Shown here in pieces: positions 8,713 to 48,712 of a DNA stretch of 64,000 bases (position 1 is the first letter of the stretch; each line of letters opens with the position of its first letter). Below the pieces are notes generated by a model, which did no database searches, was not told the DNA's origin, and saw nothing but the letters and a program-made list of their open reading frames with translations. The DNA is taken from NCBI GenBank assembly GCA_013792075.1, contig VMSR01000302.1, positions 75 through 64,074 on the forward strand. Direction: 5' to 3'. Source of the stretch: Desulfobacula sp. (GTDB lineage Bacteria > Desulfobacterota > Desulfobacteria > Desulfobacterales > Desulfobacteraceae). Both the position numbers and the translations under genes were made by a program.

Positions 8713-8801
8713 TTTACTTTTTTCCTGTCTTAGGTTGTTTTTAAATATCACGGGAAACGGAAAACTGCTTTCCTCGCCATTCACTCTCTATTTCAAACTA
8801 T

Positions 8802-9293: not shown

Positions 9294-10094
9294 CTAATTA
9301 AGGGTCATGGTATTCACAACACCCTTAACACCGCGGACGTCACCCACAAGCTTGGTGGCCAATTCCTTTTCTGCTGCATTTTTCACATTGCCTTGCAGCT
9401 TGACCACACCGTCATTTGTCGTAACTATTGTATTCAGAGCGCTGGTTGAGCGATGATACATCAAGGTTGTCTTGGCCAGAGCCGTTATGGATGCATCATC
9501 CAAGAATTCCATAACACTATCGATTTTTTTGGCCACTTTTGACTGATCCGGCTTCATTTCAGCAGGTTTCATTGCAGCAGGTGCGAGGGTTATCTCATTA
9601 ATAACATTTTTGACCCCTTCCACATCCATGGCGTATTCTTTAGCCAGGTCCTTCTGGGCTGTGCTGGATGCTTTACCGCGCAAGGTGACGGTACCGTCTC
9701 CTACCCAAACCTCAATGCCCATACCATCCATGTTTCGATGAAACGAAAGGGTGGCTTTTACTTTGGTCAAGATCCATGCATCCGAATAAACAGCAGGTGT
9801 TTCGCTTGTTAATCCAAGCTTGTTATTTACACTTTTCACACCCGGTAGATTTGCTGCCATATCATTGGCCAGTGATTTCTGGAATTCTTCGGAAACCGTC
9901 CCGGTCAATATGACAGCGCCGTCTTTTGACTGGATGTGGATGTTTTCATCCTTGAGGTAGTGCTTGAACACGTACGACTCTTTTGCGGATGATTCGATAC
10001 GGTCATCAAAATCAGATGCGTACAGAACGTTGCCGGGTACACACAAAAAGGCAACAAGGCATATCTGTAAGAAACGTTGCAGTATCTTTTTCAT
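9294..10094 (-). CDS. periplasmic 3xBON-domain protein (paralog)
   Basis: 266-aa ORF with signal peptide MKKILQRFLQICLVAFLCVPGNVLYA and BON repeats. Close paralog of 34220-35005. Confidence 0.85.
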   Translation of the reverse strand: MKKILQRFLQICLVAFLCVPGNVLYASDFDDRIESSAKESYVFKHYLKDENIHIQSKDGAVILTGTVSEEFQKSLANDMAANLPGVKSVNNKLGLTSETPAVYSDAWILTKVKATLSFHRNMDGMGIEVWVGDGTVTLRGKASSTAQKDLAKEYAMDVEGVKNVINEITLAPAAMKPAEMKPDQSKVAKKIDSVMEFLDDASITALAKTTLMYHRSTSALNTIVTTNDGVVKLQGNVKNAAEKELATKLVGDVRGVKGVVNTMTLN

Positions 10095-12052: not shown

Positions 12053-13183
12053 ATGGCCGGCATTGAGATCATTACCGTGGAAGGGGGATCTAAATTAAGA
12101 GACTTCATAGATCTGCCCTGGAAGATCTATGTCCCGTATCCCAAATGGGTTCCTCCGCTCAAAAAAGAAGTCCGTCGGCTGCTGGACCCCCTTAAGCATC
12201 CTTTCTGGGAGTTTTCCGAGCGCATTCTTTTCCTGGCACGGCGGGGTAAAAAGACGGTAGGAAGGATTGCGGGCATCATAGATGACCATTATAACCAGTT
12301 CCATAACGAAAAGATGGGTATCTGGGGATTTTTTGAATGTGCGGATGATCCGGAAGCCGCGGCAGCTCTTTTTTCTTCCGTGGAGGGGTGGATTCACAAC
12401 AAGGGAATGACCTTTATAAGAGGTCCTCTCAACCCGTCCACCAATCACGAGGCCGGTTTGCTAATTGAGGGTTTCGATTATCCGCCCTCCTTGATGATGC
12501 CCTATAACCCGCCTTACTATTCACGGCTGATCGAATCTTGCGGTTATGTCAAAGAAAAAGATCTGCTCTCTTTTCTTATGGACAGCGATTACAAGCTTCC
12601 CGGGTGGATGGATAATCTTGCCGGCAAGATCGCCAAAAAAAAGGGGGTCCGCATCACCCACTTTGACCCAAAGAATGCAGACGCTGAGTTTGCGCTGATC
12701 CGGCAGATATATAACGATGCCTGGTCCGATAACTGGGGGTTTGTTCCTTTGAGCGAGAATGAGATGCAGGACATAGGCAAGGACATGATGGAATTTGTAG
12801 ATCCGGACATGGCGTTTTTCATCTATCATGAGGATGAGCCCGCAGCCTTCTGCCTGATCTTTCCCGACATCAATCCCTTGCTCAAGCGTTTCAACGGGCG
12901 GGTCGGACTGCTGGGGGTGTTGAAGTATTTCCTGTACAAAAAGGAGATTAAAGGATTGCGGTTGCTTATGTTTGGGATCAAGGAGAAATACCGGCAACTG
13001 GGGTTTCCCCTGCTGGCCTTCCACCATATCTATGAAGTTGTGAGGAAAAAAGAGAAATATCAGTATATGGAAATGGGCTGGACACTGGAGGACAATGAGG
13101 CGATCAACGAATTGATAGAGGAAGCCGGTGCAAAAAAATACAAAAAATATCGCATATTCAAAAAAGTTTTTATCATAAATTAA
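12053..13183 (+). CDS. GNAT-like N-acyltransferase superfamily protein (function unknown)
   Basis: The ATG at 12053 is 8 nt after GGGGAG. The N-terminal pattern LRDFIDLPWKIYVPYPKWVPPLKKEV...FLARRGKKTVGRIAGII recalls a widespread family of roughly 380-aa proteins annotated as GNAT acetyltransferases. This is a recognition-level call only. Confidence 0.55.
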   Translation: MAGIEIITVEGGSKLRDFIDLPWKIYVPYPKWVPPLKKEVRRLLDPLKHPFWEFSERILFLARRGKKTVGRIAGIIDDHYNQFHNEKMGIWGFFECADDPEAAAALFSSVEGWIHNKGMTFIRGPLNPSTNHEAGLLIEGFDYPPSLMMPYNPPYYSRLIESCGYVKEKDLLSFLMDSDYKLPGWMDNLAGKIAKKKGVRITHFDPKNADAEFALIRQIYNDAWSDNWGFVPLSENEMQDIGKDMMEFVDPDMAFFIYHEDEPAAFCLIFPDINPLLKRFNGRVGLLGVLKYFLYKKEIKGLRLLMFGIKEKYRQLGFPLLAFHHIYEVVRKKEKYQYMEMGWTLEDNEAINELIEEAGAKKYKKYRIFKKVFIIN

Positions 13184-13214
13184 ACGTATGGCTTAAAAGC
13201 AAAAGGATTTTAAC

Positions 13215-16200
13215 ATGTCGGCTGAGCATCAAAATTCCATTATCGGTTTTATCTGGCGGCCTGAGGAGATCACCCCGGCGGTGGTTCAGATGGTTCAGCG
13301 AACAGGGAGCCATGCTGTCTTCGATTTTTCCATGATAAAGGGAGCAGACGATCTGTATTCCTGCCTGCGGGAAACAGACCCTGATGATCTTGTCAGGGAT
13401 ATTAAAATTTCCGCCACGGCCTTTACGGATCCGTCTCTGGTTCGGGTATTAAAGAAAACAGGGGTCCACGCCCTCTGGGTAGAGTGCCCCCTTGAGGTTT
13501 CTGACGGAGATACCTCCTTGTTTATAGAAAAGCTTAAGGAAATTTCCAAAAGTTATTGCTGCTTTCCCATCACCGGGGACACCGATCTTGTGGCAAAAAT
13601 ATTAAAGGATGACCCGGGCATCGGGCGAATCGTTCTGAAAGGATGTGAGGCCGCAGGATTCGTGGGCCGTGAGACGACCATGGCGCTCTATTCAATGGCC
13701 AGAGAAATGCTCAGGGCTTCTTCAACGCCTTGTGATATTCTCATCTGGGGCGGTGTCTTTATCCCTGAGGCAGCAGCGGCATTTCTGTCAACCGGGGCGG
13801 CCGGGATCATCTTTGAGAGTGTCCATTGGTTGACCGATGGGGTTAAAATTGAAGATTCCCAGCGAGAGTGTCTCCGCCGGATCCATCCGGATTCCACTGA
13901 TCTGGTCGGCCTGGACGTGCAGGTTCCCTGCCGTCTGTTCAACAAGGGAAATTCCCTCGCATTCAAGGAAATCAAGGCTTACGAGGACTCGCTCTGCGGT
14001 GCAACGATCCTGGCCCAAGACCGCCACGGTTTTGCAAACCGGGTGAATGCTAAGGCCGTTCACCCCCTGAAGAGCCTTTTTAGCCGGGACGAAGTCATTT
14101 TTCTGGGTGTGGAAGCGGCTTTTGCCGAGTCCTTTATTAACCGTTTTGGAACCCAGACCGAGGAAGCGGTGCGAGCGTTCATGGACGAAATTCATGGGTT
14201 ATGCAACCTGGCCGAAGAAAAAAAGAAGTGTTTTCTGGACAGTCCTGTGGCCAAAGAGATGGGAATCCTATACCCCTTTATTCAGGGCGCCATGTCCTGG
14301 ATCACGGATGTTCCTGAGTTTGCCCTGGGGGTCGCCGATGCCGGTGGATTGCCCACCATCGCCCTTGGCCTGATGGACGCTGAAATGCTTGACAAAAAGC
14401 TTGGATGTCTGCCGAAGATCATGGGCGAGCGCCCATATGCCGTGAATGTGGTCGCTTTGGCGGAAAATCCTTTCAGGGGATTGCATCTGGCCTGGATAAA
14501 AAAGCATAGACCCCGTTTTGCAGTGATTGCAGGCGGTGATGTTTCCGTCATCGGTGAATTGATGGAAAGCGGCATTGATGTCATTTATATCGCTCCGGAT
14601 GAAGCACTATTGAAGCTCGCCCTCAAAGCAGGCGTCCGATATGTGATCTGCGAGGGGTATGAGGCCGGGGGCCATGTGGGACCGCATAGCACGCTTACCC
14701 TTGCACAAATGGTGCTGGATCTGAAACAATCCACCCCATCCCTGTTCAAAAACTGTCGCATAATCCTTGCCGGGGGAATTTTTAACCGGGAAACCGCGTT
14801 TATGGCAGCCATGCTCGGAGCCGACGCCATCCAGATGGGTACCGCCTATCTGGCCACACGGGAAATTGTTGACACAGGCGCCTTGGCACCCCTTTATCAG
14901 CAGATGATCCTGAAATCACTTCCGGCAGGAACCGTTGTTTCCGGCCGGAACACCGGCCTTAGGGTAAGGTCCCTGAGAACCCCGGTGGTGGAAGTTATGT
15001 TATCCCTGGAAAGGGAGTTTGCCGCAGGACACCGGGACGAGACCTCTTTCAGGGTGAGTATGGAAAAAATGGCGGCCGGAAGCCTTTTCACTGCTGCAAG
15101 GGGTATGGACAGGCCGGGAGAGGCACTTCTAGATGAAAAAACCTGTCTGGAACGCGGACAATTCATGAGCGGGGCATGTGCCGGGCTCATCCGTGACGTC
15201 GATAATCTGAAGTCCTTTCACCGTGAACTGGTCCAGGGCCCTCTTCATATGCATCAGCCGGTTGCAGGCGCCTTGGAAACACCATTGAAAATACCGGTCG
15301 CTGGGGTCAAAAATACACTGAATCAAGTCATACCCAAAAGAGAGAATCATGACAGAATTGCCATCACCGGCATGAGCATCGTTAATACCCTGGGGGAAAG
15401 CCCGGAAGAAGTCTGGGCTGCAAGCCTGGCCATGAAGAGCGGAATCACTCTGGTTCCGCCGTCACGGTGGGATCATGCCCTGTATTATGACGCCCGTCCC
15501 CATACTCCAGACAAGACGTATTGCAAAGTGGGGGCTTTTCTGGACTTTCGTGTCGACCGCAATGAACTTAACATTCCTCCCCATGATTTCAGGAGTATGA
15601 CCGAGGCCACACGGATTTCCATGTGGCTTGCGGACAGGGCCATCCGGGAATCCGGTATTCTGACATCGGACATCCCGCGGGAGAGAATAGCCGTCCTCAT
15701 GTCCCAGAATTCGGGAGAAGCGGCAGGGACGCTTCCCAATATTATTATCAGGGCATACGTTAACGACATCCTGGCCGGAATCAAACAGGCCGTTGACCTC
15801 ACACCGGGTCAACACAGAGCCATCGAACAGGAAATAAAATCCGGGCGTATGGCCCCGGACGATACCACCCTGTTGGGCCGGCTCAACTGCGCTGCCGCCG
15901 GTTTTATCTGCAAACAGTATGGGTTCATGGGGCCGAGCTATGCTGTATCCGCAGCCTGCGCAACCTCACTTGTAGCACTTCACTGCGCCATCCAGATGAT
16001 CCAAAACGGCATCATAGACGCAGCCGTCGTGGGAGGGGGCGAGGATACGCTCAGCCATCTGCATTTTCTGGAATTTTCCGCCCTGGACGCACTTTACGGG
16101 TTGTCCGGGCAGGAAAAATCTGCCCATGAGACCTCTTGCCCTTTTGATGCACAAAGAGACGGGATGGTCCTTGGCGAAGGCGGGGCAATGATTGTTATTG

Positions 16201-19200
16201 AGCGGGAAAGCCTTGCCCGGGCAAGAGGGGCCCTTGTTCATGCCTTTGTGACCGGCATGGGCGCCAGCAATAACCATCTGGGGATGGTGGAGTCTTCCAA
16301 TGTCTCCCAGCAGATGGCCATTCGCGCCTCTTTTAAGGGAACATCCTATGGACCGGATGCCGTGGATCTTGTGGAATGCCATGCCACGAGCACCCGCCAG
16401 GGAGACCTGGAGGAGGTCCGTGCCCTGAAGGCGATCTTTCCTTCCTCCAAGCGCACCGTGCTCAGTGCATTTAAATCCCAGATCGGACACACACTGGGTG
16501 CCTCGGGTATCAGTAGCCTTATTCGGGGGGTGAAGGCCATGAAGGCTAAAATTTTACCGCTCACCCTTAATTACAGTCATCCGGACCCGGAAATCAATCT
16601 GGAAAAATCAGGTCTTATCATCTCCCCTGCGCCGCTGGATTGGAAAAGCCGCACCGGGGAACCCAGAAGGCTTGAAGTCAATGCGTTTGGTTTTGGCGGT
16701 TCCAATTATGTGGTCCAGGTGGAACAATCTATGGATGAAGTGGATATGGTCATGGTTTCCCATAAACCGCAAACGGTATCGGCCCATGAAGATTTGAAAG
16801 TTGTGCCCCTTGCCCTTGTCTTCCCCGGACAGGGGGCACAGTATGGCGGTATGGGACAAGAACTCTATGCGTCTTTTCCCATTATTAAAGAATGGATGGA
16901 TCGGGCTGCAGCCGTTGCAGACTTTGATCTCCTTGGCCTGATGTTCCATGATCAAGAGGAAAATCTTCAGAAGACCCGATGGCAGCAGCCTGCCATGTTT
17001 GCCATGGAAAATGCCATGGCCCGATATCTCATCAGCCTCGGCATCCGCCCGGTGGCCATGGCCGGTCACAGTCTGGGCGAATTGACTGCCTTGTGTCTGG
17101 CCGGTGTCTATTCCCCGGAGGATGGGTTTCGAATCGTGAACAAGCGGGCCCTGTGCATGGACAAAGCCGCTTCCGAGAATATCGATCCCGGTGTCATGGC
17201 AGCCACGGACGCGCCTCTGGATCTGCTGAAAAAAATGATCCAGGATTGCAATGATATCCACATCGGTAATATCAATTCACCCAAGCAGATTGTTTTAAGC
17301 GGCAATACACAAGAGATGAGGGATTTTAGCAAAAAATTGAAGGAACAGGGTCACCGGACCACCCTTCTGCGTGTCAGCATGGCCTTCCACTCTCCTGCCA
17401 TGAAGGTCATCCATGATGAACTTGCAGCATACATTGCCGCCATTGAATTTCATTCCCCGCAGATTCCGGTCATCTCCAACACGACCCAGATACCGTATCC
17501 GTCAGACCCTGATGAGATCAAAAAAATCCTCATGGCCCACCTGGAATCCCCCGTCCATTGGATGGATAATGTCCAGAGTCTTTGGAATACCTATGGGGCA
17601 AGGCTTTTTGTTGAGGTGGGACCGGGTGACGTATTGAGCAATCTCATCGCAGACACGCTTCCCGGATCAGCGTGTATCCAGACATGCCTTCGGTCCTCAG
17701 AGGGGTTGACCTTCAAGGCTGCCCTTGCCCAGCTCTTTGCCCAAGGGCAGCTTAAAGTTAAAGGAGAACCAAAGGGTATTCTTCTTCCTGCACTCAAAAA
17801 AACTCAGGAACCTCTTCGGATCATACCGGCATTGGCCTTACGGCCGCAAACATCCCTGCATCCGGATGAAAATCCCATGGAACAGATCATTCAAAGGGAA
17901 ATCAACCGGTTCGTCATGGAGAATTCCGGCCAGTTTCTTAAGTCCAACATTTTGGAAGCCATCCGCCATGAACTGAACCCGAAATTCAAAGAAGGCGACC
18001 TGTCAAGTGTTATCAAATCCATGTTCGGAGGGTTTGAGCCTCCTGAAGGATTGAAACTGCTTGCTCCTGTATCTGTTGAACCATCCGGCCCTGCTGCTGG
18101 GGGTGAAGATATCATGGAGAAACTTATTCGAATTATTATGGATGCGACCGGATATAATAGAGACGAGATCCAGCCCGACATGGATCTTCGGAAGGACCTT
18201 TCCATTCGATCCAGCCGTCTGCCCATCATCATGGATGCAGCAGAACACCAATTCGGGATCACCATTGAACTGGAGGATTTTATAGATGTCCGTACCGTGA
18301 ATGACATTGCCCTGGGGATCTCCAAAATAACTGCCCGGCAGGAAAACAACAGACGGCAAGAGTCCTCAGAGGCACTTGACCCGGACACCCTGCCAGATGA
18401 ACACCTGAAATCCTCAACAGATGCGGCAAGCTTAAATCGGCTCGTATTCGCGGATGCCGCAATAGAGTTGGGCGCTTTAATCCCCATGGAATTGAGTCCG
18501 GGCGAATCCGTCCTTTTTCTCTCTTCTGACCAGGATGACAAGATTGCCCAACGCACAGGGGACATTCTCAGGACAGACTACCGGGTTAAGACGTTTCCAA
18601 TGGGAGTCCTGCAGGAAAGCCTGGATTCCGGCAAAACGGGTCACGACATCCGAACCGAAAAAGGGGCCTTGCAGGCTGCAGATAAAATTGCAACCCTGCT
18701 TCCTGTTTCCGGGATGGTCATCACCCTTGGTCAGGACGGGCCGATAATATCAAGCAGCATGGCGGATGTTTCCCAGCTCCTTAAGGGATTCTTTGTCCTG
18801 CTTAAGGCATTTCTTGAATCACCGGCTAAAAAATTTATCCTGTTGATTCATTCCGGAGAGGATATTGAAACGCCTGTCCGGTTGCTGACCCAAGGAATGC
18901 TCGGATTATTCTTAAGCGCGGCCCAGGAATACCCATCCATCCAGTTTAGAACACTGGCAATCGAGAAAGATACCGATCTTCAAAAAGCCGTGCACAATGC
19001 TCTGGATAGAGGTTGTAAACTAGTGGAGATGATTCATCAAGATGGAAAGCTTCTCACGTCAGAGGGAGGTTTAGCCCCATCGATTTTCAGGGATTCATCA
19101 GGTCTGAACCTGAATCCTGGGAGTGTTATCGTGATGTCCGGGGGCGCAACCGGGATCAGCGCCTATCTTGCCCGCGGTCTTGCTCCTTTCATGCCACGTC

Positions 19201-20888
19201 TTGTCTTTCTGGGGAGGACGCGTCTCGATCTGAAAGGTGACCCGGCAAAACCGCTTGCCGGTCCTTCATTTTCAGCGTCGGCAGCCATCGGGCCCAGGGC
19301 AGGGGAGATTGCCCAGACCCTGGCGGATTTACACGCAGCAGGAATTGAGGCGACCTATCATACCTGCGATGTTACCGATCCTGAAGCCGTCCAGGCCATC
19401 CTGGGAGAAGTGATCGGCCGTTACGGCAAAATTGACGGGATCATTCACAGTGCCGGTGTCCTCAGGGACGGTCCCTTAAGCCGCATGACCCTGGATGATT
19501 TTTCCATGGTCACGGACGTCAAATTTCTGGGCGCCTGGAACCTCTACTCAGCGGCCAAGACTGCCGGCTTGAAGTTTTTTGCAGGCCTTTCCTCAGTCGC
19601 TGCAATCCAGGGGAGTCCCGGACAGGCAAATTATGTTGCCGCCAACCGGATGATGTCTGCCTTGCTCAGACATCTGAGCCTGAAAAACAGCACCATCCGC
19701 TTCAAGGCCTTGATGCTTCCTCCTGTTGAGGGAGCCGGCATGGCGGATGATCCGGAAATCCAGGCCCTGCTCAAGCAAAAAGGGGTTGCATATATTCATG
19801 TGAATGAGCTTGCAGGACTCATCTGCCGGGAACTTTTTGTCGCCCCGGCCGACGACAATTGGGTCATGTTCATGAAAAAACTGCCGTGTGTGAGGACGGT
19901 ATTGCTTAACGACAAAACCCGTCCCTTACCTTGCGGAGAGCTGGATTCCGGTCTTGTGTCCTTCAAACCTGAGGACTTTCCCATGATCGAAAAGATTTTA
20001 ACCCTGGACCTTTGTCAGGAAAAACTGGAAGCCTTCCGGTCTTTTTCTCTGGAAAAGGATCTCTGGATCACGGATCACAGGCCCTTCAAGTTCATCAAGC
20101 ATCCCATTGTCTCAGCCACCATGGTTCTGGAGACATTCATGGAAGCTGCCCGGATACTGTATCCCCACCTTCAGGTGCGGGGCGTTCGCAAGATCCGGCT
20201 CATGGACATGATTGAATGCCGGCCGGGGGTTCCGCGGCCGGCCAGCATCTCCTGCCGCAGGGCCGACAACAGCCTTGAAGCGGTATTGTGCGATATGTCC
20301 CTGTCAGCACAGGAGATTTCTCCGGCCGGGAGATTGACCGACCACTTTGCCCTGCAGTGCAGCGGTCAGGTGATCCTTGATGGCGGAGGAGAAACGCCCA
20401 AGAAGGGATTCCTGGATTTTCCCATCCGGCAGGACGAACTCAGGACCCGGCCCATGAATCGCAAAAAAGTATTGAAATGGTACAAAGACCGCAGCGGTCT
20501 GGGAGGACGGTATCGCGTCATAGAGTTTCTTGATGGTACGGGTCCGGGTGTCATACGGGGCCGGACGATTTATCCTGAGACATGTGACTTTGCAAATCTT
20601 TTGAACGTAAAATACCAATACTCCCCCTACCTTTTCGAGGCGCTTTTGCAATTGGTGTGCTGTCACATTGCTGTGACAGATCCATCAGAGCCCAGATCCA
20701 TGATTCCCCTGGAGATCGGGGAGATGCGGTGTTTCAGAAAAGTCCGGGCAGGAGAAAAGATAACGCTGGAGGCCAGATTGCGAACACAGGACGACGAAGT
20801 GCTCACCTGGGACACAAGGGGACTTGATGATCAGGGCGAAACCCTCATGCAGATTTTCGGGTTGCAGATGAAATGGATTTCAGATTGA
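13215..20888 (+). CDS. type I FAS/PKS-like megasynthase: degenerate ER-like + FabK/PfaD-type ER + KS + AT + ACP + KR + DH
   Basis: 2557-aa ORF. ER (about 14240-15200): ILYPFIQGAMSWITD, ICEGYEAGGHVG, ILAGGIF..GADAIQMGTAYLAT. Degenerate N-terminal copy (13215 to about 14200): LKGCEAAGFVG, ILIWGGVF. KS (about 15351-16730): SAACATSL (Cys 15957-15959), CHATSTRQGD, SQIGHTLGASG. AT (about 16810-17700): FPGQGAQYGGMG, GHSLGE (Ser 17070-17072), MAFHS. ACP (about 18105-18330): DLSIRSSRLPIIM. KR (about 18900-19800): SGGATGISAYLARGL, GQANYVAAN. DH hotdog (about 19960-20885): ITDHRPFKFIKHP. No thioesterase or reductase release domain. Confidence 0.9.
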   Translation: MSAEHQNSIIGFIWRPEEITPAVVQMVQRTGSHAVFDFSMIKGADDLYSCLRETDPDDLVRDIKISATAFTDPSLVRVLKKTGVHALWVECPLEVSDGDTSLFIEKLKEISKSYCCFPITGDTDLVAKILKDDPGIGRIVLKGCEAAGFVGRETTMALYSMAREMLRASSTPCDILIWGGVFIPEAAAAFLSTGAAGIIFESVHWLTDGVKIEDSQRECLRRIHPDSTDLVGLDVQVPCRLFNKGNSLAFKEIKAYEDSLCGATILAQDRHGFANRVNAKAVHPLKSLFSRDEVIFLGVEAAFAESFINRFGTQTEEAVRAFMDEIHGLCNLAEEKKKCFLDSPVAKEMGILYPFIQGAMSWITDVPEFALGVADAGGLPTIALGLMDAEMLDKKLGCLPKIMGERPYAVNVVALAENPFRGLHLAWIKKHRPRFAVIAGGDVSVIGELMESGIDVIYIAPDEALLKLALKAGVRYVICEGYEAGGHVGPHSTLTLAQMVLDLKQSTPSLFKNCRIILAGGIFNRETAFMAAMLGADAIQMGTAYLATREIVDTGALAPLYQQMILKSLPAGTVVSGRNTGLRVRSLRTPVVEVMLSLEREFAAGHRDETSFRVSMEKMAAGSLFTAARGMDRPGEALLDEKTCLERGQFMSGACAGLIRDVDNLKSFHRELVQGPLHMHQPVAGALETPLKIPVAGVKNTLNQVIPKRENHDRIAITGMSIVNTLGESPEEVWAASLAMKSGITLVPPSRWDHALYYDARPHTPDKTYCKVGAFLDFRVDRNELNIPPHDFRSMTEATRISMWLADRAIRESGILTSDIPRERIAVLMSQNSGEAAGTLPNIIIRAYVNDILAGIKQAVDLTPGQHRAIEQEIKSGRMAPDDTTLLGRLNCAAAGFICKQYGFMGPSYAVSAACATSLVALHCAIQMIQNGIIDAAVVGGGEDTLSHLHFLEFSALDALYGLSGQEKSAHETSCPFDAQRDGMVLGEGGAMIVIERESLARARGALVHAFVTGMGASNNHLGMVESSNVSQQMAIRASFKGTSYGPDAVDLVECHATSTRQGDLEEVRALKAIFPSSKRTVLSAFKSQIGHTLGASGISSLIRGVKAMKAKILPLTLNYSHPDPEINLEKSGLIISPAPLDWKSRTGEPRRLEVNAFGFGGSNYVVQVEQSMDEVDMVMVSHKPQTVSAHEDLKVVPLALVFPGQGAQYGGMGQELYASFPIIKEWMDRAAAVADFDLLGLMFHDQEENLQKTRWQQPAMFAMENAMARYLISLGIRPVAMAGHSLGELTALCLAGVYSPEDGFRIVNKRALCMDKAASENIDPGVMAATDAPLDLLKKMIQDCNDIHIGNINSPKQIVLSGNTQEMRDFSKKLKEQGHRTTLLRVSMAFHSPAMKVIHDELAAYIAAIEFHSPQIPVISNTTQIPYPSDPDEIKKILMAHLESPVHWMDNVQSLWNTYGARLFVEVGPGDVLSNLIADTLPGSACIQTCLRSSEGLTFKAALAQLFAQGQLKVKGEPKGILLPALKKTQEPLRIIPALALRPQTSLHPDENPMEQIIQREINRFVMENSGQFLKSNILEAIRHELNPKFKEGDLSSVIKSMFGGFEPPEGLKLLAPVSVEPSGPAAGGEDIMEKLIRIIMDATGYNRDEIQPDMDLRKDLSIRSSRLPIIMDAAEHQFGITIELEDFIDVRTVNDIALGISKITARQENNRRQESSEALDPDTLPDEHLKSSTDAASLNRLVFADAAIELGALIPMELSPGESVLFLSSDQDDKIAQRTGDILRTDYRVKTFPMGVLQESLDSGKTGHDIRTEKGALQAADKIATLLPVSGMVITLGQDGPIISSSMADVSQLLKGFFVLLKAFLESPAKKFILLIHSGEDIETPVRLLTQGMLGLFLSAAQEYPSIQFRTLAIEKDTDLQKAVHNALDRGCKLVEMIHQDGKLLTSEGGLAPSIFRDSSGLNLNPGSVIVMSGGATGISAYLARGLAPFMPRLVFLGRTRLDLKGDPAKPLAGPSFSASAAIGPRAGEIAQTLADLHAAGIEATYHTCDVTDPEAVQAILGEVIGRYGKIDGIIHSAGVLRDGPLSRMTLDDFSMVTDVKFLGAWNLYSAAKTAGLKFFAGLSSVAAIQGSPGQANYVAANRMMSALLRHLSLKNSTIRFKALMLPPVEGAGMADDPEIQALLKQKGVAYIHVNELAGLICRELFVAPADDNWVMFMKKLPCVRTVLLNDKTRPLPCGELDSGLVSFKPEDFPMIEKILTLDLCQEKLEAFRSFSLEKDLWITDHRPFKFIKHPIVSATMVLETFMEAARILYPHLQVRGVRKIRLMDMIECRPGVPRPASISCRRADNSLEAVLCDMSLSAQEISPAGRLTDHFALQCSGQVILDGGGETPKKGFLDFPIRQDELRTRPMNRKKVLKWYKDRSGLGGRYRVIEFLDGTGPGVIRGRTIYPETCDFANLLNVKYQYSPYLFEALLQLVCCHIAVTDPSEPRSMIPLEIGEMRCFRKVRAGEKITLEARLRTQDDEVLTWDTRGLDDQGETLMQIFGLQMKWISD

Positions 20889-20936
20889 TCATGAAGCGGT
20901 CCGGCAGATGGCTGATCAAAATAGACAGGAGCGGAT

Positions 20937-21746
20937 ATGGTGAGGCAGAATCAAGAAATTTTTGTTCAGACAATAAATTTTTTTCATGGAAAAGGTCCTG
21001 TCTTCTATGCATCACTGCCCTGCGGGTCAGGCCAAAGACATCATCTGGTCTCAGGGCTGTGGGATCACCTTGTTGCTGTTAAAACTCCGGTTTGGATGGG
21101 AAGGCCAGATATCAGCAAAGAGGCTTTCCCCATCCGGATCATCCGGGGCCCCCTTGGCAAACCTCAACTCCTCCTTGGAGGACATCGAGGTCCGGCAGTC
21201 TCTTTTTGCGAGAGCGGCCAGAACGTCTGGGCGGCTCTGTGTGGAGATGAGCATGATATCGGCATTGATGTGGCGCAACCCCATGAATTCCAAGGCAAAT
21301 ACCCTTTTAACCGGGTGTTTCACCCATCAGAACTTCAGCACGCTGTAAAACTGTTGGGCGAGGATTTAAAAAAAGCGGCAGCCTTGCTCTGGTCTATCAA
21401 GGAAGCGGTTGCAAAGGCCTTGGGATGTGCATTTCATCTTGTGGACCCGCGGCAGATGGTGGTGTATCCGTCAATATCTAGTAGCGCCACAGGGCGAGCG
21501 GCAACGGAAAGCTATGTATATGATTTTCCGGTGGGGTTATCACAAAAGGCCGTCATGCGGTTTCCCATGGCTGCGGGCCGGGCCTTACGGGTACGTTCGG
21601 TTTTTCATGAAAAAATGTGGCTTTCCATTGCCCTGTTGAATTGGCAGCAACGTTTGAATGACGGGGCAGATGACGGGAAAAGCAGGTTTGTTACCCACAG
21701 ATACAGTCCAAAATACAGCCAAAAAATACAGATTGGAGCGTTATGA
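20937..21746 (+). CDS. 4'-phosphopantetheinyl transferase (Sfp-type)
   Basis: 269-aa ORF after AGGAG. Motifs: DIGIDVAQPHEF (GxD metal site) and LWSIKEAVAKALG (W/FxxKEAxxK). Confidence 0.8.
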   Translation: MVRQNQEIFVQTINFFHGKGPVFYASLPCGSGQRHHLVSGLWDHLVAVKTPVWMGRPDISKEAFPIRIIRGPLGKPQLLLGGHRGPAVSFCESGQNVWAALCGDEHDIGIDVAQPHEFQGKYPFNRVFHPSELQHAVKLLGEDLKKAAALLWSIKEAVAKALGCAFHLVDPRQMVVYPSISSSATGRAATESYVYDFPVGLSQKAVMRFPMAAGRALRVRSVFHEKMWLSIALLNWQQRLNDGADDGKSRFVTHRYSPKYSQKIQIGAL

Positions 21747-22696
21747 CCCAAAACCCTGAATATGCAATTGAAGTTACCAACCTGACCCGTCGCTACAAGG
21801 GGTTTGCTGCAGTTGACGACATATCGTTTACCGTCAGGAAAGGTGAGGTCTTTGCCCTGCTGGGCCCCAATGGTGCAGGCAAGACCACGACCGTCGAGAT
21901 CATCAATACCATCAGAAAACCCACATCCGGCAAAGTGACCCTTCTTGGAATGGACGTCACCCAAAAAAAGTATAAAATCATCCCCCGCATTGGCGTCCTT
22001 CCGCAAGGGTTCAGCACCTTTGACCGGATAACGGTTAAAGAAACCCTGCAGTATTACTCCCGGCTTTTTTGCAACCCGAACACCGATATCAATGGGCTGA
22101 TAGCGCTTGTGAATCTCCAGGACAAGGTCAAGGTACAATACAGGAACCTCTCTGGAGGATTGAAACAGCGCCTTGGAATCGCTGTTGCGCTGGTGAACGA
22201 CCCCGAAGTTGTGTTCCTGGACGAGCCCACGACCGGGCTTGACCCCCGGGCCCGGCGGGAGGTGTGGAAAGTTCTGCTGGGCCTTAAAAAAAAAGGGAAG
22301 ACCCTATTTCTTACCACACACTACATGGAGGAAGCAGAACTTCTTGCAGACACGGTGGCCATTGTCGCAAAAGGGAAGATCACGGCCATGGGATCTCCGG
22401 GAGAACTCATCGAAAACAATGCCAATTACCTGGTCGCCATGCTGAAGTCTGTGGATGAAAATGTTTTTGAAATCGTCAGAAACATGGGGCTTGCGCCGGC
22501 CTATGACAGCCAGGGACACATCAAGGTCAGGCTTACGCACACGGAAGATGTCCGAAGGCTGCTCAACACGGTCAAGGACAGCGGGGCGTCGTTTGCCGGA
22601 CTGGACGTCCGCAAGCCCAATCTGGAAGAGGTCTTCCTGAAACTTACCGATGAACCACTTGCGCAAGGCTTTGTCCGTATAAAGGGGGCAGAATGA
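21743..22696 (+). CDS. ABC transporter ATP-binding protein
   Basis: Walker A GPNGAGKTT, signature LSGGLKQR, Walker B VVFLDEPTTGLD. ATGA overlap with the PPTase stop. Confidence 0.9.
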   Translation: MTQNPEYAIEVTNLTRRYKGFAAVDDISFTVRKGEVFALLGPNGAGKTTTVEIINTIRKPTSGKVTLLGMDVTQKKYKIIPRIGVLPQGFSTFDRITVKETLQYYSRLFCNPNTDINGLIALVNLQDKVKVQYRNLSGGLKQRLGIAVALVNDPEVVFLDEPTTGLDPRARREVWKVLLGLKKKGKTLFLTTHYMEEAELLADTVAIVAKGKITAMGSPGELIENNANYLVAMLKSVDENVFEIVRNMGLAPAYDSQGHIKVRLTHTEDVRRLLNTVKDSGASFAGLDVRKPNLEEVFLKLTDEPLAQGFVRIKGAE

Positions 22697-23826
22697 AGCT
22701 GCACATCCTCCATGCAAACATCATTTATGCCAATATCATCGTGAGCATCAAGAGCTTCTACCGCGAGAAAACGGTGGTATTTTTCAGGCTTGCCTTCCCG
22801 GTCATCCTGATACTCGTTTTTGGCACCATTTTCATGGAAAGAGACAATGAAATTTTTGACCTAAGCATTCAGGACCTGGACCGGACACCCTCATCCGAAC
22901 AACTCGTGGAAGCGATTCGTCTCAGCAAAAGATTCACCATCACAAAGGTCTCTCCTGCTGTTGATGCAAAAACCTATGCCAAGACCCATAAGCGCAATCT
23001 GATTGTCATTATTCCCAAAGACTTTGAAATGTCCATGATGCAGAAAATGGAATCCGATACCTTTGGCACACCCGTCAGCCTCAACCAGTTATACGACCCC
23101 AGCGCCTTTGGGGTGACGACCAAACTAGGGGTGCTGGACATGGTGCTGGCCGGGATAAACCAGGAAATGTCCGGTAAACCGCCGCTCATTGTATCGGAAC
23201 CCATATCCATACTTAAAAAGAAATATCGGTTTATCGAGTTTTTTGTCCCCGGGATCATTGCCATGGCAGTGATGACGGCAAGCCTGTTCGGTGCGGTGAA
23301 CGTCAATGCCGAACTCCGGCAGAAAGGCGTCATCAGAAAGCTTTTCACCACCCCCATTACCCGGATTGACTGGATTCTGTCAAACGTCCTGTACCAGTTC
23401 ATTCTTGCGGTTCTGTCCACAGCGGTGATGTTGCTGGTGAGCTATGTCGTGTTCAGTGTTAGTCTTGAGATAAATGCCTGGCTTGTGGTGTTTATTGCCC
23501 TTGACGTTTTTTCATTTGTCGGGCTCGGCATGATTCTCACCCGCGTTGCCAAGGAGGCTGAAAGTGCTTCGGCCGCGGCCGATGCCCTGATGTTTCCCAT
23601 GATGTTCCTCTCAGGAACATTCTTCCCTGTGGAGATGATGCCTGAATTTCTGCAGAAGTTTGCCAGGGTTCTGCCGCTGTATTATGTGAACGAGGGACTC
23701 AGGGCCGCCATGGTATCCGTGGATCACGCAGCTGCCCTGAAATGTGCCCTGACCATCGGGGCGTTTGCCGCTGTGGTGTTTGTTCTCGGCAGCATGATAA
23801 CCACATTGGGCGGAGAGAGCACATGA
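22693..23826 (+). CDS. ABC-2 type transporter permease
   Basis: 377-aa ORF with an N-terminal TM helix, a large extracytoplasmic loop, then 5 C-terminal TM helices. ATGA overlap with the ATPase gene. Confidence 0.8.
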   Translation: MKLHILHANIIYANIIVSIKSFYREKTVVFFRLAFPVILILVFGTIFMERDNEIFDLSIQDLDRTPSSEQLVEAIRLSKRFTITKVSPAVDAKTYAKTHKRNLIVIIPKDFEMSMMQKMESDTFGTPVSLNQLYDPSAFGVTTKLGVLDMVLAGINQEMSGKPPLIVSEPISILKKKYRFIEFFVPGIIAMAVMTASLFGAVNVNAELRQKGVIRKLFTTPITRIDWILSNVLYQFILAVLSTAVMLLVSYVVFSVSLEINAWLVVFIALDVFSFVGLGMILTRVAKEAESASAAADALMFPMMFLSGTFFPVEMMPEFLQKFARVLPLYYVNEGLRAAMVSVDHAAALKCALTIGAFAAVVFVLGSMITTLGGEST

Positions 23827-24765
23827 TTTTCAATGCACGGGACAAGATCACCCGGGGGCTGTTGTCATTGGCCGGGCCTTTGCCCCTTAATCTCTACTAC
23901 CGGCACCATTTTCCATTGCCCTCGGTCATCTTGATCGAGAACACAAACTGCTGCAACGCGCGCTGTGTGATGTGCCCCCGTGAGAAGCTGACCCGAAAAC
24001 CAGGCTTTATGGCCTTTGAAGTGTTCGAGAAAATTATCAGAGATGTATCCGGCGCCAGACGAAAACCTGTCGTGCATCTGCACGGGTTTGGAGAGCCGCT
24101 GCTGGATGAGGTGCTGCCCGACCGGATCAAACTTGCAAAGGCCTTTGGCATAAAGCATACCTATCTGGTTACCAATGCGTCGCTATTATTTCCCGAGACC
24201 GCCAGAAAGATTATTGGTGCTGGGCTGGACAGGATGAAAATCAGTTTTTACGGCACGGATGATGAATCCTATTGCCGCACCATGAGAGGGCTGGATTTCA
24301 AGGTGGCGTTGAACAACGTCAGGGAATTTGTAAAAATAAGAAAGGAAATGAAAAAAAAAGACGCCGAAACTGATCCTTCAATACCTGCCTCAAACGACCA
24401 ATGGTGCTGCGACAAAAGAATTCAAATCCCTGTGGCGCTCTGTTCTGGATAAGCGGATGGGTGACTGCCTGAATATTAGTTCTCCGGACAATTTTGGCGG
24501 CGGAAGGGCTTACAATTCTGTTGAAAAAAAAATAGTGTCTGTCTGTTTTTATCCCTGGTCAGCCCTGTCCGTGCTCTGTGACGGCAAGGCCGTGACCTGC
24601 TGCATGGATTACAATGGCGTTCAGGAAGTGGGGGATGTGAACTTGCACAGTGTCAAGGAAATCTGGAACGGGCCTGTAATGTCCGACATCAGAAAAAACT
24701 TCGGCAGGCTTGACTATGGCGGATTTCCAGCCTGTCAGTGCTGTGACTGGGTACACAGGGGATAA
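23823..24765 (+). pseudogene. radical SAM / SPASM-like protein interrupted by a +1 frame change at an A9 run (two ORF fragments: 23823-24452 and 24457-24765)
   Basis: The ATG at 23823 overlaps the permease stop. The CNARCVMC (CxxxCxxC) cluster and GFGEPLLD are in fragment 1. The Cys-rich C-terminal part (CFYPWSALSVLCDGKAVTCCMDYNG...CQCCDW) is in fragment 2. Removing one A from the run at 24351-24359 gives a continuous reading: ..EMKKKTPKLILQYLPQTTNGAATKEFKSLWRSVLDKRMGDCLNISSPDNFGG.. Confidence 0.75.
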
Positions 24766-24778
24766 GGGGAGGCGGCAG

Positions 24779-25747
24779 ATGAAAAAAAAGATATTCTTTA
24801 TATGCGGCTCCATGAATCAGACCACCCAGATGCATCAGATTGCAGGACACCTTGGCGATTATGACCACGCGTTCTCACCCTTCTACGTCCACGGATTTGA
24901 CGCGTTTCTCAAAAAGGTCGGAATGATCGAATTCACCATTGCCGGAAACAAACTGGCCAACCGTTGCCGGGACTATCTTCAGGACCAGGGTCTGCCCATG
25001 GACGAAAAAGGTCGCAATCGACCCTACGACCTGGTGGTGACCTGCTCGGATGTGTATTTGCAGAAGAACATCAGGGGAGATCGGATGGTGCTGGTTCAGG
25101 AAGGGATTACAGACCCGGAATCTTTCATGTTCCATCTTGTCAACCGGTTCCGATTCCTTCCGCTCTGGTTTGCGGGCAATGCATTGACCGGTCTCAGTGA
25201 TGCATATGAGGTGTTCTGTGTTGCAAGCGAAGGGTATCGGGACTTTTTCATAAAAAAAGGTGTGCGTGCCGAGAAGATTGTTGTTACGGGGATACCCAAT
25301 TTCGACAATTGCCGGCAATATGCCGGCAACACCTTTCCCTACAAGAATTATGTGCTGGCCTGTACGTCTGCGCTGAGGGAGACCCTCCAGTTCGAAAACC
25401 GCAAGGCTTTTATCCGAAAAGCTGTTGAGATCGCAGGTCCACGGCAGCTTATCTTCAAGCTTCACCCGAGCGAAAAAGTTAGGCGTGCCACCCGGGAAAT
25501 AAACACGTATGCCCCCGGGGCCATGGTGTTTTCCACCGGTAACGCAGAAGAAATGATCGCAAACTGTGATGTTCTGATTACCCGGTTTTCTTCGACAGCC
25601 CTTGTCGGCCTTGCCCTGGGCAAGGAAACCCACTCAGACTTCAATATGGAAGAAATGCGTCGATTGACGCCTATACAGAACGGTTCGGCGGCCCTGAACA
25701 TTGCCAGTGTCTGCCGCCGGCTTCTTGAAAGTGAGGATTTATGTTAA
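24779..25747 (+). CDS. GT-B-fold glycosyltransferase-like protein (GT28/MGDG-synthase-like; tentative)
   Basis: The ATG at 24779 follows GGGGAGG. N-terminal KKIFFICGSMNQTTQMHQIA and C-terminal MIANCDVLITRFSSTALVGLALGKE resemble the two Rossmann halves of GT-B enzymes. The family is not firmly recognised. Confidence 0.45.
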   Translation: MKKKIFFICGSMNQTTQMHQIAGHLGDYDHAFSPFYVHGFDAFLKKVGMIEFTIAGNKLANRCRDYLQDQGLPMDEKGRNRPYDLVVTCSDVYLQKNIRGDRMVLVQEGITDPESFMFHLVNRFRFLPLWFAGNALTGLSDAYEVFCVASEGYRDFFIKKGVRAEKIVVTGIPNFDNCRQYAGNTFPYKNYVLACTSALRETLQFENRKAFIRKAVEIAGPRQLIFKLHPSEKVRRATREINTYAPGAMVFSTGNAEEMIANCDVLITRFSSTALVGLALGKETHSDFNMEEMRRLTPIQNGSAALNIASVCRRLLESEDLC

Positions 25748-28250: not shown

Positions 28251-28307
28251 TTTATCCTTTTTACCCACCAAAGGCCCTCATATGTTTTTCCATTTTTCAT
28301 ATACTCA

Positions 28308-36611: not shown

Positions 36612-36612
36612 C

Positions 36613-42644: not shown

Positions 42645-42646
42645 TT

Positions 42647-43465: not shown

Positions 43466-43482
43466 CAGATCGGAGAACAACG

Positions 43483-48685: not shown

Positions 48686-48712
48686 GGCAGGTTTTTTAAA
48701 AATCAGGTTTCC

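What the first reader, a model, noticed from the sequence alone, without database searches (positions are those of the whole stretch)
13215..20888. Non-canonical megasynthase architecture: tandem FabK/PfaD-type ER-like barrels at the N-terminus, ACP placed before KR-DH, DS-to-RS ACP motif
The domain order read from motifs is ER'(degenerate)-ER-KS-AT-ACP-KR-DH. The usual order is KS-AT-DH-ER-KR-ACP.

The enoyl reductase is the FMN/TIM-barrel (nitronate monooxygenase, FabK/PfaD) type, not the MDR type. It appears twice:
- The second copy carries ICEGYEAGGHVG and ILAGGIF...GADAIQMGTAYLAT.
- The first copy has the parallel LKGCEAAGFVG (His replaced by Phe, around 13641-13667) and ILIWGGVF...GAAGIIFESVHWLT. 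This indicates an internal duplication followed by loss of the catalytic His.

Other features:
- The ACP phosphopantetheine site reads LSIRSSRLPIIM where LGIDSIKRVEIL-type motifs are expected. The near-invariant Asp before the Ser is Arg (Ser at 18210-18212).
- The KS active-site context (SAACATS, HATST) is more FabF-like than PKS-like.
Basis: seen in the sequence. Interest (0 to 1): 0.65.

Follow-up and report, generated by a model that had tools for sequence, protein, structure and literature searches.

The report
Lipid megasynthase with a dead enoyl-reductase twin
A 2,557-residue fatty-acid/polyketide-type synthase carries a conserved, catalytically disabled copy of its own enoyl reductase and an unusually charged carrier domain. 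It belongs to a widespread, apparently undescribed family of lipid-making operons in anaerobic bacteria.

Summary
ORF 13215-20888 encodes psiER-ER-KS-AT-ACP-KR-DH.

**N-terminal domain (psiER).** The first 340 aa fall below Pfam's NMO cut-off. An AlphaFold model of them matches FabK best, and homologous N-termini of distant relatives pass the cut-off. The catalytic His is replaced in 35/35 representatives. The real ER keeps His in all of them.

**ACP.** It carries Arg-Ser instead of Asp-Ser. This is invariant across the family.

- KS-AT-ACP-KR-DH is the normal order of PfaA (PUFA synthase) and enediyne PKSs.
- The psiER is conserved (69% mean pairwise identity), not decaying.
- Internal duplication cannot be told apart from fusion of two paralogues.
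- The KS is equidistant from FabF and PKS KSs.

**Distribution.** The gene sits in a conserved operon: tandem-GNAT acyltransferase, synthase, PPTase, ABC-2 exporter, then here rSAM/SPASM, a glycosyltransferase-like gene and an Spt-like gene. Relatives occur in 309 species genomes, among them Desulfobacterota, Nitrospirota, Planctomycetota and Acidobacteriota.

**Best reading.** It is a self-contained, fully reducing iterative type I FAS that makes an exported N-acyl or sphingoid-type lipid. The product is unknown. I found no paper describing the architecture. I rate it a new variant of a known kind, of moderate interest.

The parts
12053..13183 (+). Tandem-GNAT-like 'acyl-CoA N-acyltransferase' (376 aa), the near-invariable upstream partner of the synthase; candidate chain-release enzyme
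   Evidence: Present upstream of the synthase in 76/80 related loci at 69-91% identity, adjacent or separated by about one gene. No Pfam or NCBIfam hit. Sources name it acyl-CoA N-acyltransferase, and it has 3315 homologue clusters. The AF2 model is poor (pLDDT 55); its Foldseek hits are all tandem GNATs, but with TM about 0.3.
13215..20888 (+). Megasynthase ORF, 2557 aa: psiER-ER-KS-AT-ACP-KR-DH, with no thioesterase domain
   Evidence: There are 36 full-length homologues in the fetched loci. An AAAGGA ribosome-binding site lies 8 nt upstream of the ATG.
13215..14234 (+). psiER: FabK-fold TIM barrel lacking the catalytic His (F149, nt 13659-13661), with QMGT replaced by FESV
   Evidence: F149 is invariant in 37/37 close homologues. 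The position is never His in 35/35 representatives.
14247..15239 (+). ER: FabK-type FMN enoyl-ACP reductase domain with catalytic His487
   Evidence: Pfam NMO 84 bits. PDB FabK 5gvh at E 3e-29. TIGR03151 FabK at E 2e-46. His is invariant.
15351..16574 (+). KS (Cys915, His1056, His1092)
   Evidence: Pfam. PDB comparison. Catalytic residues invariant in 37/37.
16818..17663 (+). AT, FabD-like, with GHSLG Ser1286 and the MAFHS motif (malonyl-type, by motif)
   Evidence: Pfam. TIGR00128 fabD at E 2e-67. Motif positions.
18117..18311 (+). Single ACP with DLSIRSSRLPIIMD; Ser1666 (nt 18210-18212) preceded by Arg1665
   Evidence: Pfam PP-binding at E 3e-7. The motif is identical in 36/36 full-length homologues. 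It reads L[SAG]I[RK]SSR in 23/23 family representatives. Aligned with AcpP.
19128..19730 (+). KR (SDR; Tyr in GQANYVAAN)
   Evidence: Pfam KR at E 3e-33; motif position.
20040..20885 (+). PKS-type double-hotdog DH (His2288 in DHRPFKFIKHP; Glu2475/Gln2479 in YLFEALLQ)
   Evidence: Pfam PS-DH at E 4e-10. His is conserved in 36/36 and Glu/Gln in 35/35.
20937..21746 (+). Sfp-type phosphopantetheinyl transferase
   Evidence: Pfam ACPS at E 1e-11. Found in 46 of 80 loci; the count is limited by flank length.
21743..23826 (+). ABC-2 exporter: ATPase (21743-22696) and permease (22693-23826), DrrAB/NodIJ-like
   Evidence: Found in 46-49 of 80 loci. Stop and start codons overlap.
23742..24765 (+). Radical SAM/SPASM gene, split in this window by a +1 A in an A9 run at about 24351-24359
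   Evidence: It is a single 314-320 aa ORF in other loci. It is A8 in L001.
24710..25747 (+). Conserved glycosyltransferase-like protein (weak similarity only)
   Evidence: TIGR04396 at E 3e-9 and BFO_1060 glycosyltransferase at E 1e-8. Found in 17 loci at 72-90% identity.
25741..26997 (+). Serine-palmitoyltransferase-like alpha-oxoamine synthase, last gene of the operon in this lineage
   Evidence: NF047600 at E 5e-153, 509 bits against a cut-off of 640. The same position in L084 is followed by an SDR. Close homologues in Marinimicrobia lie next to an SDR with no synthase nearby.

Best explanation
The ORF is an iterative, fully reducing type I fatty-acid/polyketide synthase of the PfaA (PUFA-synthase) lineage, with its FabK-type enoyl reductase fused in cis.

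**Shown**
- The domain order is psiER-ER-KS-AT-ACP-KR-DH.
- All catalytic residues of ER, KS, AT, KR and DH are conserved.
- There is one carrier domain, no thioesterase, and a dedicated PPTase next door.

**Inferred**
- The malonyl-type AT loads the single ACP. KS, KR, DH and ER then run repeated cycles that give a largely saturated acyl chain on Ser1666.
- The N-terminal psiER is a non-catalytic FabK-fold barrel. It lacks the proton-donor His, and an acidic FESV replaces the QMGT FMN-phosphate loop. It most likely serves as the in-cis partner of the active ER, mimicking the dimer partner of FabK-family reductases, or as an ACP or partner-docking scaffold. In this it resembles the psiKR and psiME pseudo-domains of animal FAS.
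- The charge-inverted ACP start (R-S-S-R, with Ile where AcpP has Glu41) probably insulates this carrier from housekeeping FAS II enzymes.
- The chain is released by trans-acting enzymes of the operon. These are the invariably adjacent tandem-GNAT N-acyltransferase and, in Desulfobacteraceae, the Spt-like alpha-oxoamine synthase. The resulting N-acyl or sphingoid-type lipid is then modified and exported by the ABC-2 transporter.
For: **Architecture and active sites:**

**psiER has the FabK fold and is NMO family:**

**psiER is probably not catalytic**
- His is absent in 35/35 representatives. It is replaced by chemically unrelated residues (F, Y, W, L, V, I, P, K, R), while the ER keeps His in 35/35.
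- QMGT is replaced by [FL][ED][SN]x.
- Conservation lies between that of most catalytic domains and that of linkers.

**The ACP is real and its RS motif is fixed:**

**Conserved operon:** GNAT-synthase-PPTase-ABC-ABC2 recurs across phyla. Stop and start codons overlap as far as the Spt-like gene in this window, and L084 shows the same order.

**Precedent:** bacterial Spt can use a dedicated acyl-ACP (PMC9386255, abstract; PMC11087976).
Against: - No product is known.
- The GNAT assignment rests on source names and a low-confidence model (pLDDT 55, TM about 0.3).
- The Spt-like gene lay within reach in only 10 of 80 loci. Its closest homologues outside Desulfobacteraceae have no synthase nearby, so the sphingoid link may be specific to this lineage.
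- psiER keeps strongly conserved motifs (KGxEAxG, WGG, PEAAAAF, ESxHWLTD, FNKGNS). These could reflect ligand binding or catalysis rather than scaffolding.
- Flavin binding, the psiER-ER interface and phosphopantetheinylation were not testable here.
- PfaA-type relatives use their ER only in some cycles, so a partly unsaturated product is not excluded.
Confidence: 0.55

Rival explanations
1. psiER is an active flavoenzyme with a different job. It could be a FabX-like dehydrogenase/isomerase, or a second reductase using another proton donor, so the synthase would have two FabK-family activities.
For: The domain has a full-length FabK fold. FabX (7e1q) is among its structural matches at TM about 0.54. 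Several motifs are invariant within the family, including E201/H204 in ESVHWLTD.
Against: - The catalytic-His position holds F/Y/W/L/V/I/P/K/R in different lineages, so no common replacement residue exists.
- H204 is Leu, Phe or Val in the distant relatives that keep the domain.
- The FMN-phosphate loop QMGT is lost, and the N-terminal IQGxM motif is replaced by FVWxP.
- No conserved Cys set is present for an Fe-S cluster like that of FabX.
Confidence: 0.15
2. The enzyme is the organism's housekeeping fatty-acid synthase, replacing FAS II. Shulse and Allen proposed this for the 'Type S' cluster of Desulfobacterium autotrophicum HRM2.
For: - The reductive loop is complete and the parts are FAS II-like (FabK, FabD, FabF-like, FabG-like).
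- Conservation is very high across phyla.
- PMC3098273 notes that D. autotrophicum lacks fabA and fabZ and suggests its Type S synthase may be the core FAS.
Against: - The gene is always linked to an ABC-2 exporter, an N-acyltransferase and tailoring genes, which is typical of a specialised exported lipid.
- Relatives were found in only 309 of 185,579 species genomes, patchily across phyla.
- I could not confirm that Type S has this architecture, because the figure is not held.
Confidence: 0.12
3. It is a PUFA-, polyene- or hydrocarbon-type synthase like its PfaA relatives. The ER would act in only some cycles, giving an unsaturated chain.
For: The order is PfaA-like and TIGR02813 hits at E 1e-123. 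Distant relatives with the same psiER-ER head have 2-6 tandem ACPs, and one of them (P0342) shows a second KS-type motif.
Against: - The operon has no KS-CLF, no FabA-type DH/isomerase and no PfaB/PfaC-like gene.
- There is a single ACP.
- The ER is FabK-like and lacks the PfaD-type insertion that the distant relatives carry.
- The score is far below the PfaA cut-off (413 against 1010 bits).
Confidence: 0.15
4. The long ORF is an assembly or fusion artefact joining separate ER and PKS genes.
For: Nothing positive. The same window does contain a homopolymer frameshift, in the rSAM gene.
Against: There are 36 independent full-length homologues of 2333-2772 aa in MAGs and complete chromosomes. 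There are also dozens of 2400-2700 aa representatives in the 1.8-billion-protein library.
Confidence: 0.01

Closest known systems
PfaA subunit of bacterial PUFA synthases, with PfaD as a trans-acting FMN enoyl reductase
   Same: - The KS-AT-ACP-KR-DH(PS-DH) order.
- An FMN TIM-barrel ER rather than an MDR-type ER.
- An Sfp-type PPTase in the cluster.
- The KS N-terminal part aligns over its full length only with PfaC KS-CLF (6riw).
- Distant relatives with the same psiER-ER head have tandem LGID[ST] ACPs.
   Different: - The ER is fused in cis and preceded by a His-less psiER.
- There is one ACP, with RS rather than DS.
- There are no PfaB/PfaC partners (KS-CLF, FabA-type DH).
- The score is below the PfaA model cut-off.
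- The ER is FabK-like and lacks the PfaD insertion.
FabK, the FMN-dependent enoyl-ACP reductase II of type II FAS (e.g. 2z6i, 5gvh, 9pl0)
   Same: The active ER aligns over the whole length of FabK (32% identity over 323 aa to T. maritima FabK). The psiER model has FabK as its best structural match.
   Different: FabK is a free-standing protein. Here two FabK-fold barrels lie in tandem inside a megasynthase, and the first lacks the catalytic His and the QMGT loop.
Pseudo-domains of animal FAS and PKS (psiKR, psiME)
   Same: Each is a degenerate copy of a catalytic fold kept as a structural element next to the active domain (my own knowledge). psiER shows the same pattern of lost active-site residues with a retained fold and intermediate conservation.
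   Different: The fold differs (a TIM barrel rather than a Rossmann fold). A structural role for psiER is inferred, not shown.
Enediyne PKS (PKSE: KS-AT-ACP-KR-DH-PPTase)
   Same: The same KS-AT-ACP-KR-DH core order, with a dedicated PPTase (my own knowledge).
   Different: PKSE has no ER, makes polyenes and carries its PPTase in cis. This family was not tested by profile here.
Bacterial sphingolipid pathway (Spt, dedicated ACP plus acyl-ACP synthetase, bCerS acyltransferase, CerR/KDSR reductase)
   Same: An Spt-like gene lies in the operon. An N-acyltransferase is present, and an SDR follows Spt in L084. Spt use of a specialised acyl-ACP is documented (PMC9386255, abstract; PMC11087976).
   Different: A whole type I synthase would stand in for the ACP/synthetase pair. 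The GNAT was not compared with bCerS. The Spt link is seen mainly in Desulfobacteraceae. No lipid has been assigned.

Membership tests
PfaA-type (PUFA-synthase-like) iterative type I FAS/PKS | Domain order KS-AT-ACP(n)-KR-DH(PS-DH) | tested here: met
   Pfam coordinates.
PfaA-type (PUFA-synthase-like) iterative type I FAS/PKS | Score above the curated PfaA model cut-off (TIGR02813) | tested here: not met
   413 bits against a cut-off of 1010.
PfaA-type (PUFA-synthase-like) iterative type I FAS/PKS | Several tandem ACPs with the LGIDS motif | tested here: not met
   One PP-binding domain, reading LSIRSS.
PfaA-type (PUFA-synthase-like) iterative type I FAS/PKS | Partner genes PfaB/PfaC (KS-CLF, FabA-type DH) and a separate PfaD in the cluster | tested here: not met
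   The operon genes are GNAT, PPTase, ABC-2, rSAM, glycosyltransferase-like and Spt-like. The ER is fused in cis.
FabK/NMO FMN enoyl reductase (second domain, aa 345-675) | Pfam NMO above the gathering score, full-length alignment to solved FabK, catalytic His | tested here: met
   84 bits against 28. 5gvh at E 3e-29. His487 is invariant. It is below the FabK equivalog cut-off (159 against 453 bits), as expected for a domain within a larger protein.
FabK/NMO fold (first domain, psiER, aa 1-340) | NMO/FabK TIM-barrel fold and homology | tested here: met
   Foldseek top hits are FabK at E 1.5e-10, TM 0.66-0.72. hhalign to the ER gives E 1.4e-4. Homologous domains of distant relatives pass the Pfam NMO cut-off. 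The window's own domain does not (13 bits against 28).
FabK/NMO fold (first domain, psiER, aa 1-340) | Catalytic His and FMN-binding loops (IQGxM, QMGT) | tested here: not met
   F149 stands in place of His. FESV stands in place of QMGT. FIWRP stands in place of IQGAM.
FabK/NMO fold (first domain, psiER, aa 1-340) | Binds FMN and reduces enoyl-ACP | not testable with these tools
   Needs purified protein.
Phosphopantetheine carrier protein (PF00550) | Profile match above the cut-off, with Ser at the attachment position | tested here: met
   26-31 bits against 20.8. Ser1666 aligns with AcpP Ser36.
Phosphopantetheine carrier protein (PF00550) | Asp (or His) immediately before the Ser, and an acidic helix II | tested here: not met
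   The sequence is R-S-S-R-L-P-I-I-M-D. It is invariant in 37/37 close homologues and has [RK] in 23/23 representatives.
Phosphopantetheine carrier protein (PF00550) | Is actually phosphopantetheinylated | not testable with these tools
   Only indirect support: a PPTase gene follows the synthase in most loci whose flank reaches that far.
Animal FAS / cis-AT modular PKS | Order KS-AT-DH-ER(MDR)-KR-ACP | tested here: not met
   The order differs and the ER is of the NMO type, not the MDR type.
Bacterial sphingolipid synthesis cluster | Spt above the curated cut-off, plus bCerS and CerR/KDSR homologues | tested here: inconclusive
   The Spt-like gene scores 509 bits against a cut-off of 640. An SDR follows Spt in L084 but not in the window. 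The GNAT was not compared with bCerS because no sequence was available.

The most novel reading that the evidence does not exclude
The psiER-ER head would define a large, unrecognised clade of PfaA-like synthases in anaerobic bacteria. The RS-ACP subfamily would be a self-contained type I fatty-acid synthase wired directly to an Spt-like enzyme and a GNAT acyltransferase. A charge-inverted carrier domain would keep it orthogonal to FAS II. Its product would be an exported sphingoid or N-acyl lipid, which would make it a possible genetic source of orphan (deoxy)ceramide-type lipids reported from euxinic waters (PMC11334938).
Probability: 0.3. Interest if true: 0.7.

Novelty: new variant of a known kind. 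Interest (0 to 1): 0.55.

Why it matters
Pseudo-domains such as psiKR and psiME are central to how megasynthases are built, and I know of no described FabK-fold pseudo-ER.

If psiER replaces the dimer partner of FabK-family reductases, that would explain how a dimeric trans-acting ER was domesticated into a single chain. It would also give engineers a portable cis-ER module.

The fixed Arg-Ser carrier motif is a natural experiment in ACP-partner orthogonality.

Ecologically, the operon is conserved at 67-87% identity across sulfate reducers, syntrophs, Nitrospirota, Planctomycetota and Acidobacteriota from sediments, peat and groundwater. It must therefore make a lipid of some importance that nobody has assigned. 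In Desulfobacteraceae the operon is linked to an Spt-like gene.

Tried and rejected
1. Pfam and NCBIfam on the first 340 aa gave only a sub-threshold NMO hit (E 0.059). I therefore needed structure prediction and transitive homology.
2. Sequence search of PDB with aa 1-702 found nothing in aa 1-340.
3. I tried to show that psiER is closest to its own ER, which would indicate internal duplication. Its profile scores the ER at 7e-8 and T. maritima FabK at 1.2e-6. That gap is too small to decide, so the claim was not adopted.
4. The AF2 model of the GNAT-like partner was poor (pLDDT 55). Foldseek matches are all GNATs but at TM about 0.3. I use this only as weak support.
5. Seven literature searches found no description of the architecture. 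Shulse and Allen's 'Type S' may be the same thing, but its domain map is only in a figure that is not held.
6. I checked for a tight Spt-synthase link. Close Spt homologues in Marinimicrobia have no synthase nearby, so the link is lineage-specific.
7. I considered an Fe-S or FabX-like role for psiER and dropped it, because no Cys is conserved across the family.
8. The search for homologous proteins with psiER returned only fragments of up to 578 aa. Full-length relatives came from the genome scan and the representative library.
Full report
**1. What is there**

The window has a single ORF at 13215-20888 (+) encoding 2557 aa. An AAAGGA ribosome-binding site lies 8 nt before the ATG. Pfam gives these domains:
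- NMO (FabK-type ER), aa ~345-672
- KS, aa 713-1120
- AT, aa 1202-1483
- PP-binding, aa 1635-1699
- KR, aa 1972-2172
- PS-DH, to aa 2554

No thioesterase or loading domain is detected.

**2. The first 340 residues**

Direct profile searches are not convincing. Pfam NMO gives E 0.059 and 13 bits against a cut-off of 28. A PDB sequence search finds nothing in aa 1-340. Four independent lines nevertheless agree that this is a FabK-type barrel:
- BLASTP against the adjacent ER gives 28% identity over 135 aa, E 1e-6. It aligns KGCEAAGF with EGYEAGGH and IWGGVF with LAGGIF.
- hhalign of the two family profiles is collinear over 249 columns, E 1.4e-4.
- An AlphaFold2 model built on 64 homologues (pLDDT 78.7, pTM 0.79) has FabK structures as its best PDB matches (9pl0, 5gvj, 2z6i; E 1.5e-10, TM 0.66/0.72). 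Trans-AT ER (DfnA), PfaD and nitronate monooxygenases follow.
- A search of 1.84 billion representative proteins with aa 1-340 finds 189 proteins at E<=1e-3. The long ones (about 2400-2700 aa) match at their N-terminus, usually with a second, weaker match. Sequence inspection shows that second match to be the true ER. In the most distant of these relatives, the homologous N-terminal domain passes Pfam's NMO gathering score (33-74 bits).

**3. Is it a decaying relic?**

It is not. Among the window protein and 36 full-length homologues from the fetched loci, mean pairwise identity is as follows:

| Region | Mean pairwise identity |
|---|---|
| psiER | 0.69 |
| ER, KS, AT, ACP, KR | 0.77-0.84 |
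| DH | 0.72 |
| Linkers | 0.40-0.59 |

Across 35 sequences (the window protein and 34 representatives clustered at 50% identity), the position of the FabK catalytic His is F, Y, W, L, V, I, P, K or R and never His. The true ER has His in 35/35. The FMN-phosphate loop QMGT of the ER is [FL][ED][SN]x in psiER. The N-terminal IQGxM motif is replaced by FVWxP.

The varied residues at the His position, together with an acidic residue in the phosphate loop, argue for loss of flavin chemistry with retention of the fold. I call the domain a pseudo-ER (psiER). That it acts as the in-cis partner of the active ER is inference, as is the premise behind it: PDB entries show FabK with several chains, and that FabK-family reductases work as dimers is my own knowledge.

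'Internal duplication' cannot be demonstrated. The psiER profile scores the neighbouring ER at 7e-8 and T. maritima FabK at 1.2e-6.

**4. The carrier domain**

PP-binding scores above the cut-off. An alignment with E. coli AcpP and with PfaA-type ACPs places Ser1666 on the phosphopantetheine Ser and Arg1665 on the canonical Asp. Helix II reads SSRLPIIMD, against SLDTVELVM in AcpP.
- DLSIRSSRLPIIMD is identical in 36/36 full-length homologues.
- L[SAG]I[RK]SSR is present in 23/23 family representatives, down to 30% psiER identity.
- Eleven more distant relatives share the psiER-ER head. Ten of them have canonical LGID[ST]xK-type ACPs, sometimes 2-6 in tandem.

The psiER-ER head is therefore older and wider than the RS-ACP subfamily. 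An Sfp-type PPTase gene follows the synthase. The modification itself is untested.

**5. The rest of the synthase**

All catalytic residues are invariant, or nearly so, among the window protein and its 36 full-length homologues:
- KS: Cys915, His1056, His1092
- AT: Ser1286
- DH: His2288, Glu2475, Gln2479

The KR Tyr motif (GQANYVAAN) is present in the window protein.

The AT is FabD-like (TIGR00128, E 2e-67) with an MAFHS motif. That this motif is malonyl-type is my own knowledge.

The KS is not clearly FabF-like. Taken alone, its best PDB scores are as follows:

| PDB match | Score |
|---|---|
| Trans-AT PKS KS (7zma) | 190 bits |
| T. thermophilus FabF | 148 bits |
| Mitochondrial KAS | 146 bits |
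| PfaC KS-CLF (the only full-length alignment) | 146 bits |
| Cis-AT PKS KSs | about 130 bits |
| E. coli FabF | 126 bits |

The order KS-AT-ACP-KR-DH is that of PfaA and of enediyne PKSE (my own knowledge). The NCBIfam PfaA model hits at E 1e-123, but far below its cut-off. The 'non-canonical ACP position' is therefore canonical for this lineage. What is unusual is the cis-fused ER, the psiER in front of it and the RS carrier.

**6. Context**

A scan of one genome per species (185,579 species) found 309 genomes encoding a relative. Among the top loci are Desulfobacterales, Syntrophales, Syntrophobacterales, Desulfuromonadales/Geobacter, Nitrospirota/Thermodesulfovibrionales, Phycisphaerae, Lentisphaerae and Acidobacteriota. 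The best hit is an uncultured Desulfobacterium at 87% identity.

In the 80 loci fetched:
- A 373-376 aa protein with no Pfam hit precedes the synthase in 76, at 69-91% identity. Sources call it acyl-CoA N-acyltransferase.
- The PPTase, an ABC ATPase and an ABC-2 permease follow wherever the flank reaches.
- A radical SAM/SPASM gene and a glycosyltransferase-like gene follow in many loci.
- Some lineages insert a 281 aa unknown protein, a FemAB-like protein or an SDR.

In the window, the genes from 12053 to 26997 are co-directional. Their stops and starts overlap at 21743/21746, 22693/22696 and 25741/25747. The last gene is an Spt-like alpha-oxoamine synthase (NF047600, E 5e-153, below its cut-off).

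A Desulfobacterium MAG shows the same order, followed by an SDR. Close Spt homologues in Marinimicrobia (72-79% identity) sit next to an SDR without any synthase. The Spt module therefore appears to be a lineage-specific addition to a core of GNAT, synthase, PPTase and ABC-2.

**7. Mechanism proposed**

Shown:
- A complete set of elongation and reduction domains with intact active sites.
- One carrier domain and no release domain.
- A dedicated PPTase, a co-conserved acyltransferase and a co-conserved exporter.

Inferred:
- Iterative synthesis of a largely saturated chain on Ser1666.
- Release by the GNAT through N-acylation, and/or by the Spt-like enzyme through Claisen condensation with an amino acid. 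Precedent exists for Spt enzymes that use a specialised acyl-ACP (PMC9386255, abstract; PMC11087976).
- Tailoring, then export by the ABC-2 pump.

The product is unknown.

Rivals are scored in the report sections: an active psiER, a housekeeping FAS (Shulse and Allen's suggestion for D. autotrophicum 'Type S', PMC3098273) and a PUFA/polyene-type product.

**8. Novelty**

Seven full-text searches found no description of an ER-KS-AT-ACP-KR-DH protein with a tandem ER. Ding et al. 2024 (PMC11334938) report Spt-encoding Desulfobacterota as candidate (deoxy)ceramide producers, but do not mention a synthase. Shulse and Allen may have catalogued one member as 'Type S', without detail in the text.

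All folds and chemistries are known ones. New here are the conserved pseudo-ER, its fusion with a FabK-like ER to a PfaA-like core, the fixed Arg-Ser carrier motif and the operon. I rate it a new variant of a known kind, with interest 0.55.

Noticed in passing
window 24351-24359 (within 23742-24765): The radical SAM/SPASM gene of the operon is split into two frames by one extra A in an A9 run. L001 has A8, and other loci have a single 314-320 aa ORF. This is either a homopolymer sequencing error or a genuine inactivating or phase-variable frameshift.
   Followed up: partly
window 27054-28271 (-): A PLD-family (cardiolipin/phosphatidylserine-synthase-like, two HKD motifs) gene lies convergent with the end of the operon. 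Weak homologues (28-36% identity) lie near the synthase in about 11 other loci. It could add a phospho-headgroup to the product.
   Followed up: partly
L013, L014, L022, L025, L028 and others, between the GNAT gene and the synthase: A conserved 281 aa protein with no Pfam hit is inserted immediately upstream of the synthase in 28 loci, but is absent from the window. A FemAB-like 390 aa protein lies between the PPTase and the ABC genes in 20 loci.
   Followed up: partly
proteins P0342, P0351, P0364, P0352 (3000-4000 aa): Distant relatives carry the same psiER-ER head on multi-ACP PUFA-synthase-like proteins. P0342, P0351 and P0352 have 2-6 LGIDTVK repeats, and P0342 has a second KS-type motif. 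The pseudo-ER is therefore not confined to the family in the window.
   Followed up: partly
window 35565-38321 (-): An LpxR-family outer-membrane lipid A deacylase gene lies directly next to a second ABC-2 transporter pair. Three BON-domain genes are present (7924-8784, 9294-10094, 34220-35005), plus a YtxH gene. Together they form an envelope-related neighbourhood around the lipid operon.
   Followed up: no
window 41844-46107 (+): A cyanophycin metabolism set: isoaspartyl dipeptidase/asparaginase_2, a Peptidase_S51 (cyanophycinase-like) and a cyanophycin synthetase.
   Followed up: no
window ~40000-54559: Cumulative GC skew reaches its minimum near 40-42 kb. dnaA lies at 53075-54559, with dnaB at 57874-59253 and uvrA at 48713-51694. 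The window is chromosomal and may lie near the replication origin.
   Followed up: no
window 5782-6315 (-): A 177 aa ORF matches only the last ~90 positions of the GH94 catalytic domain. It is probably a gene remnant.
   Followed up: no
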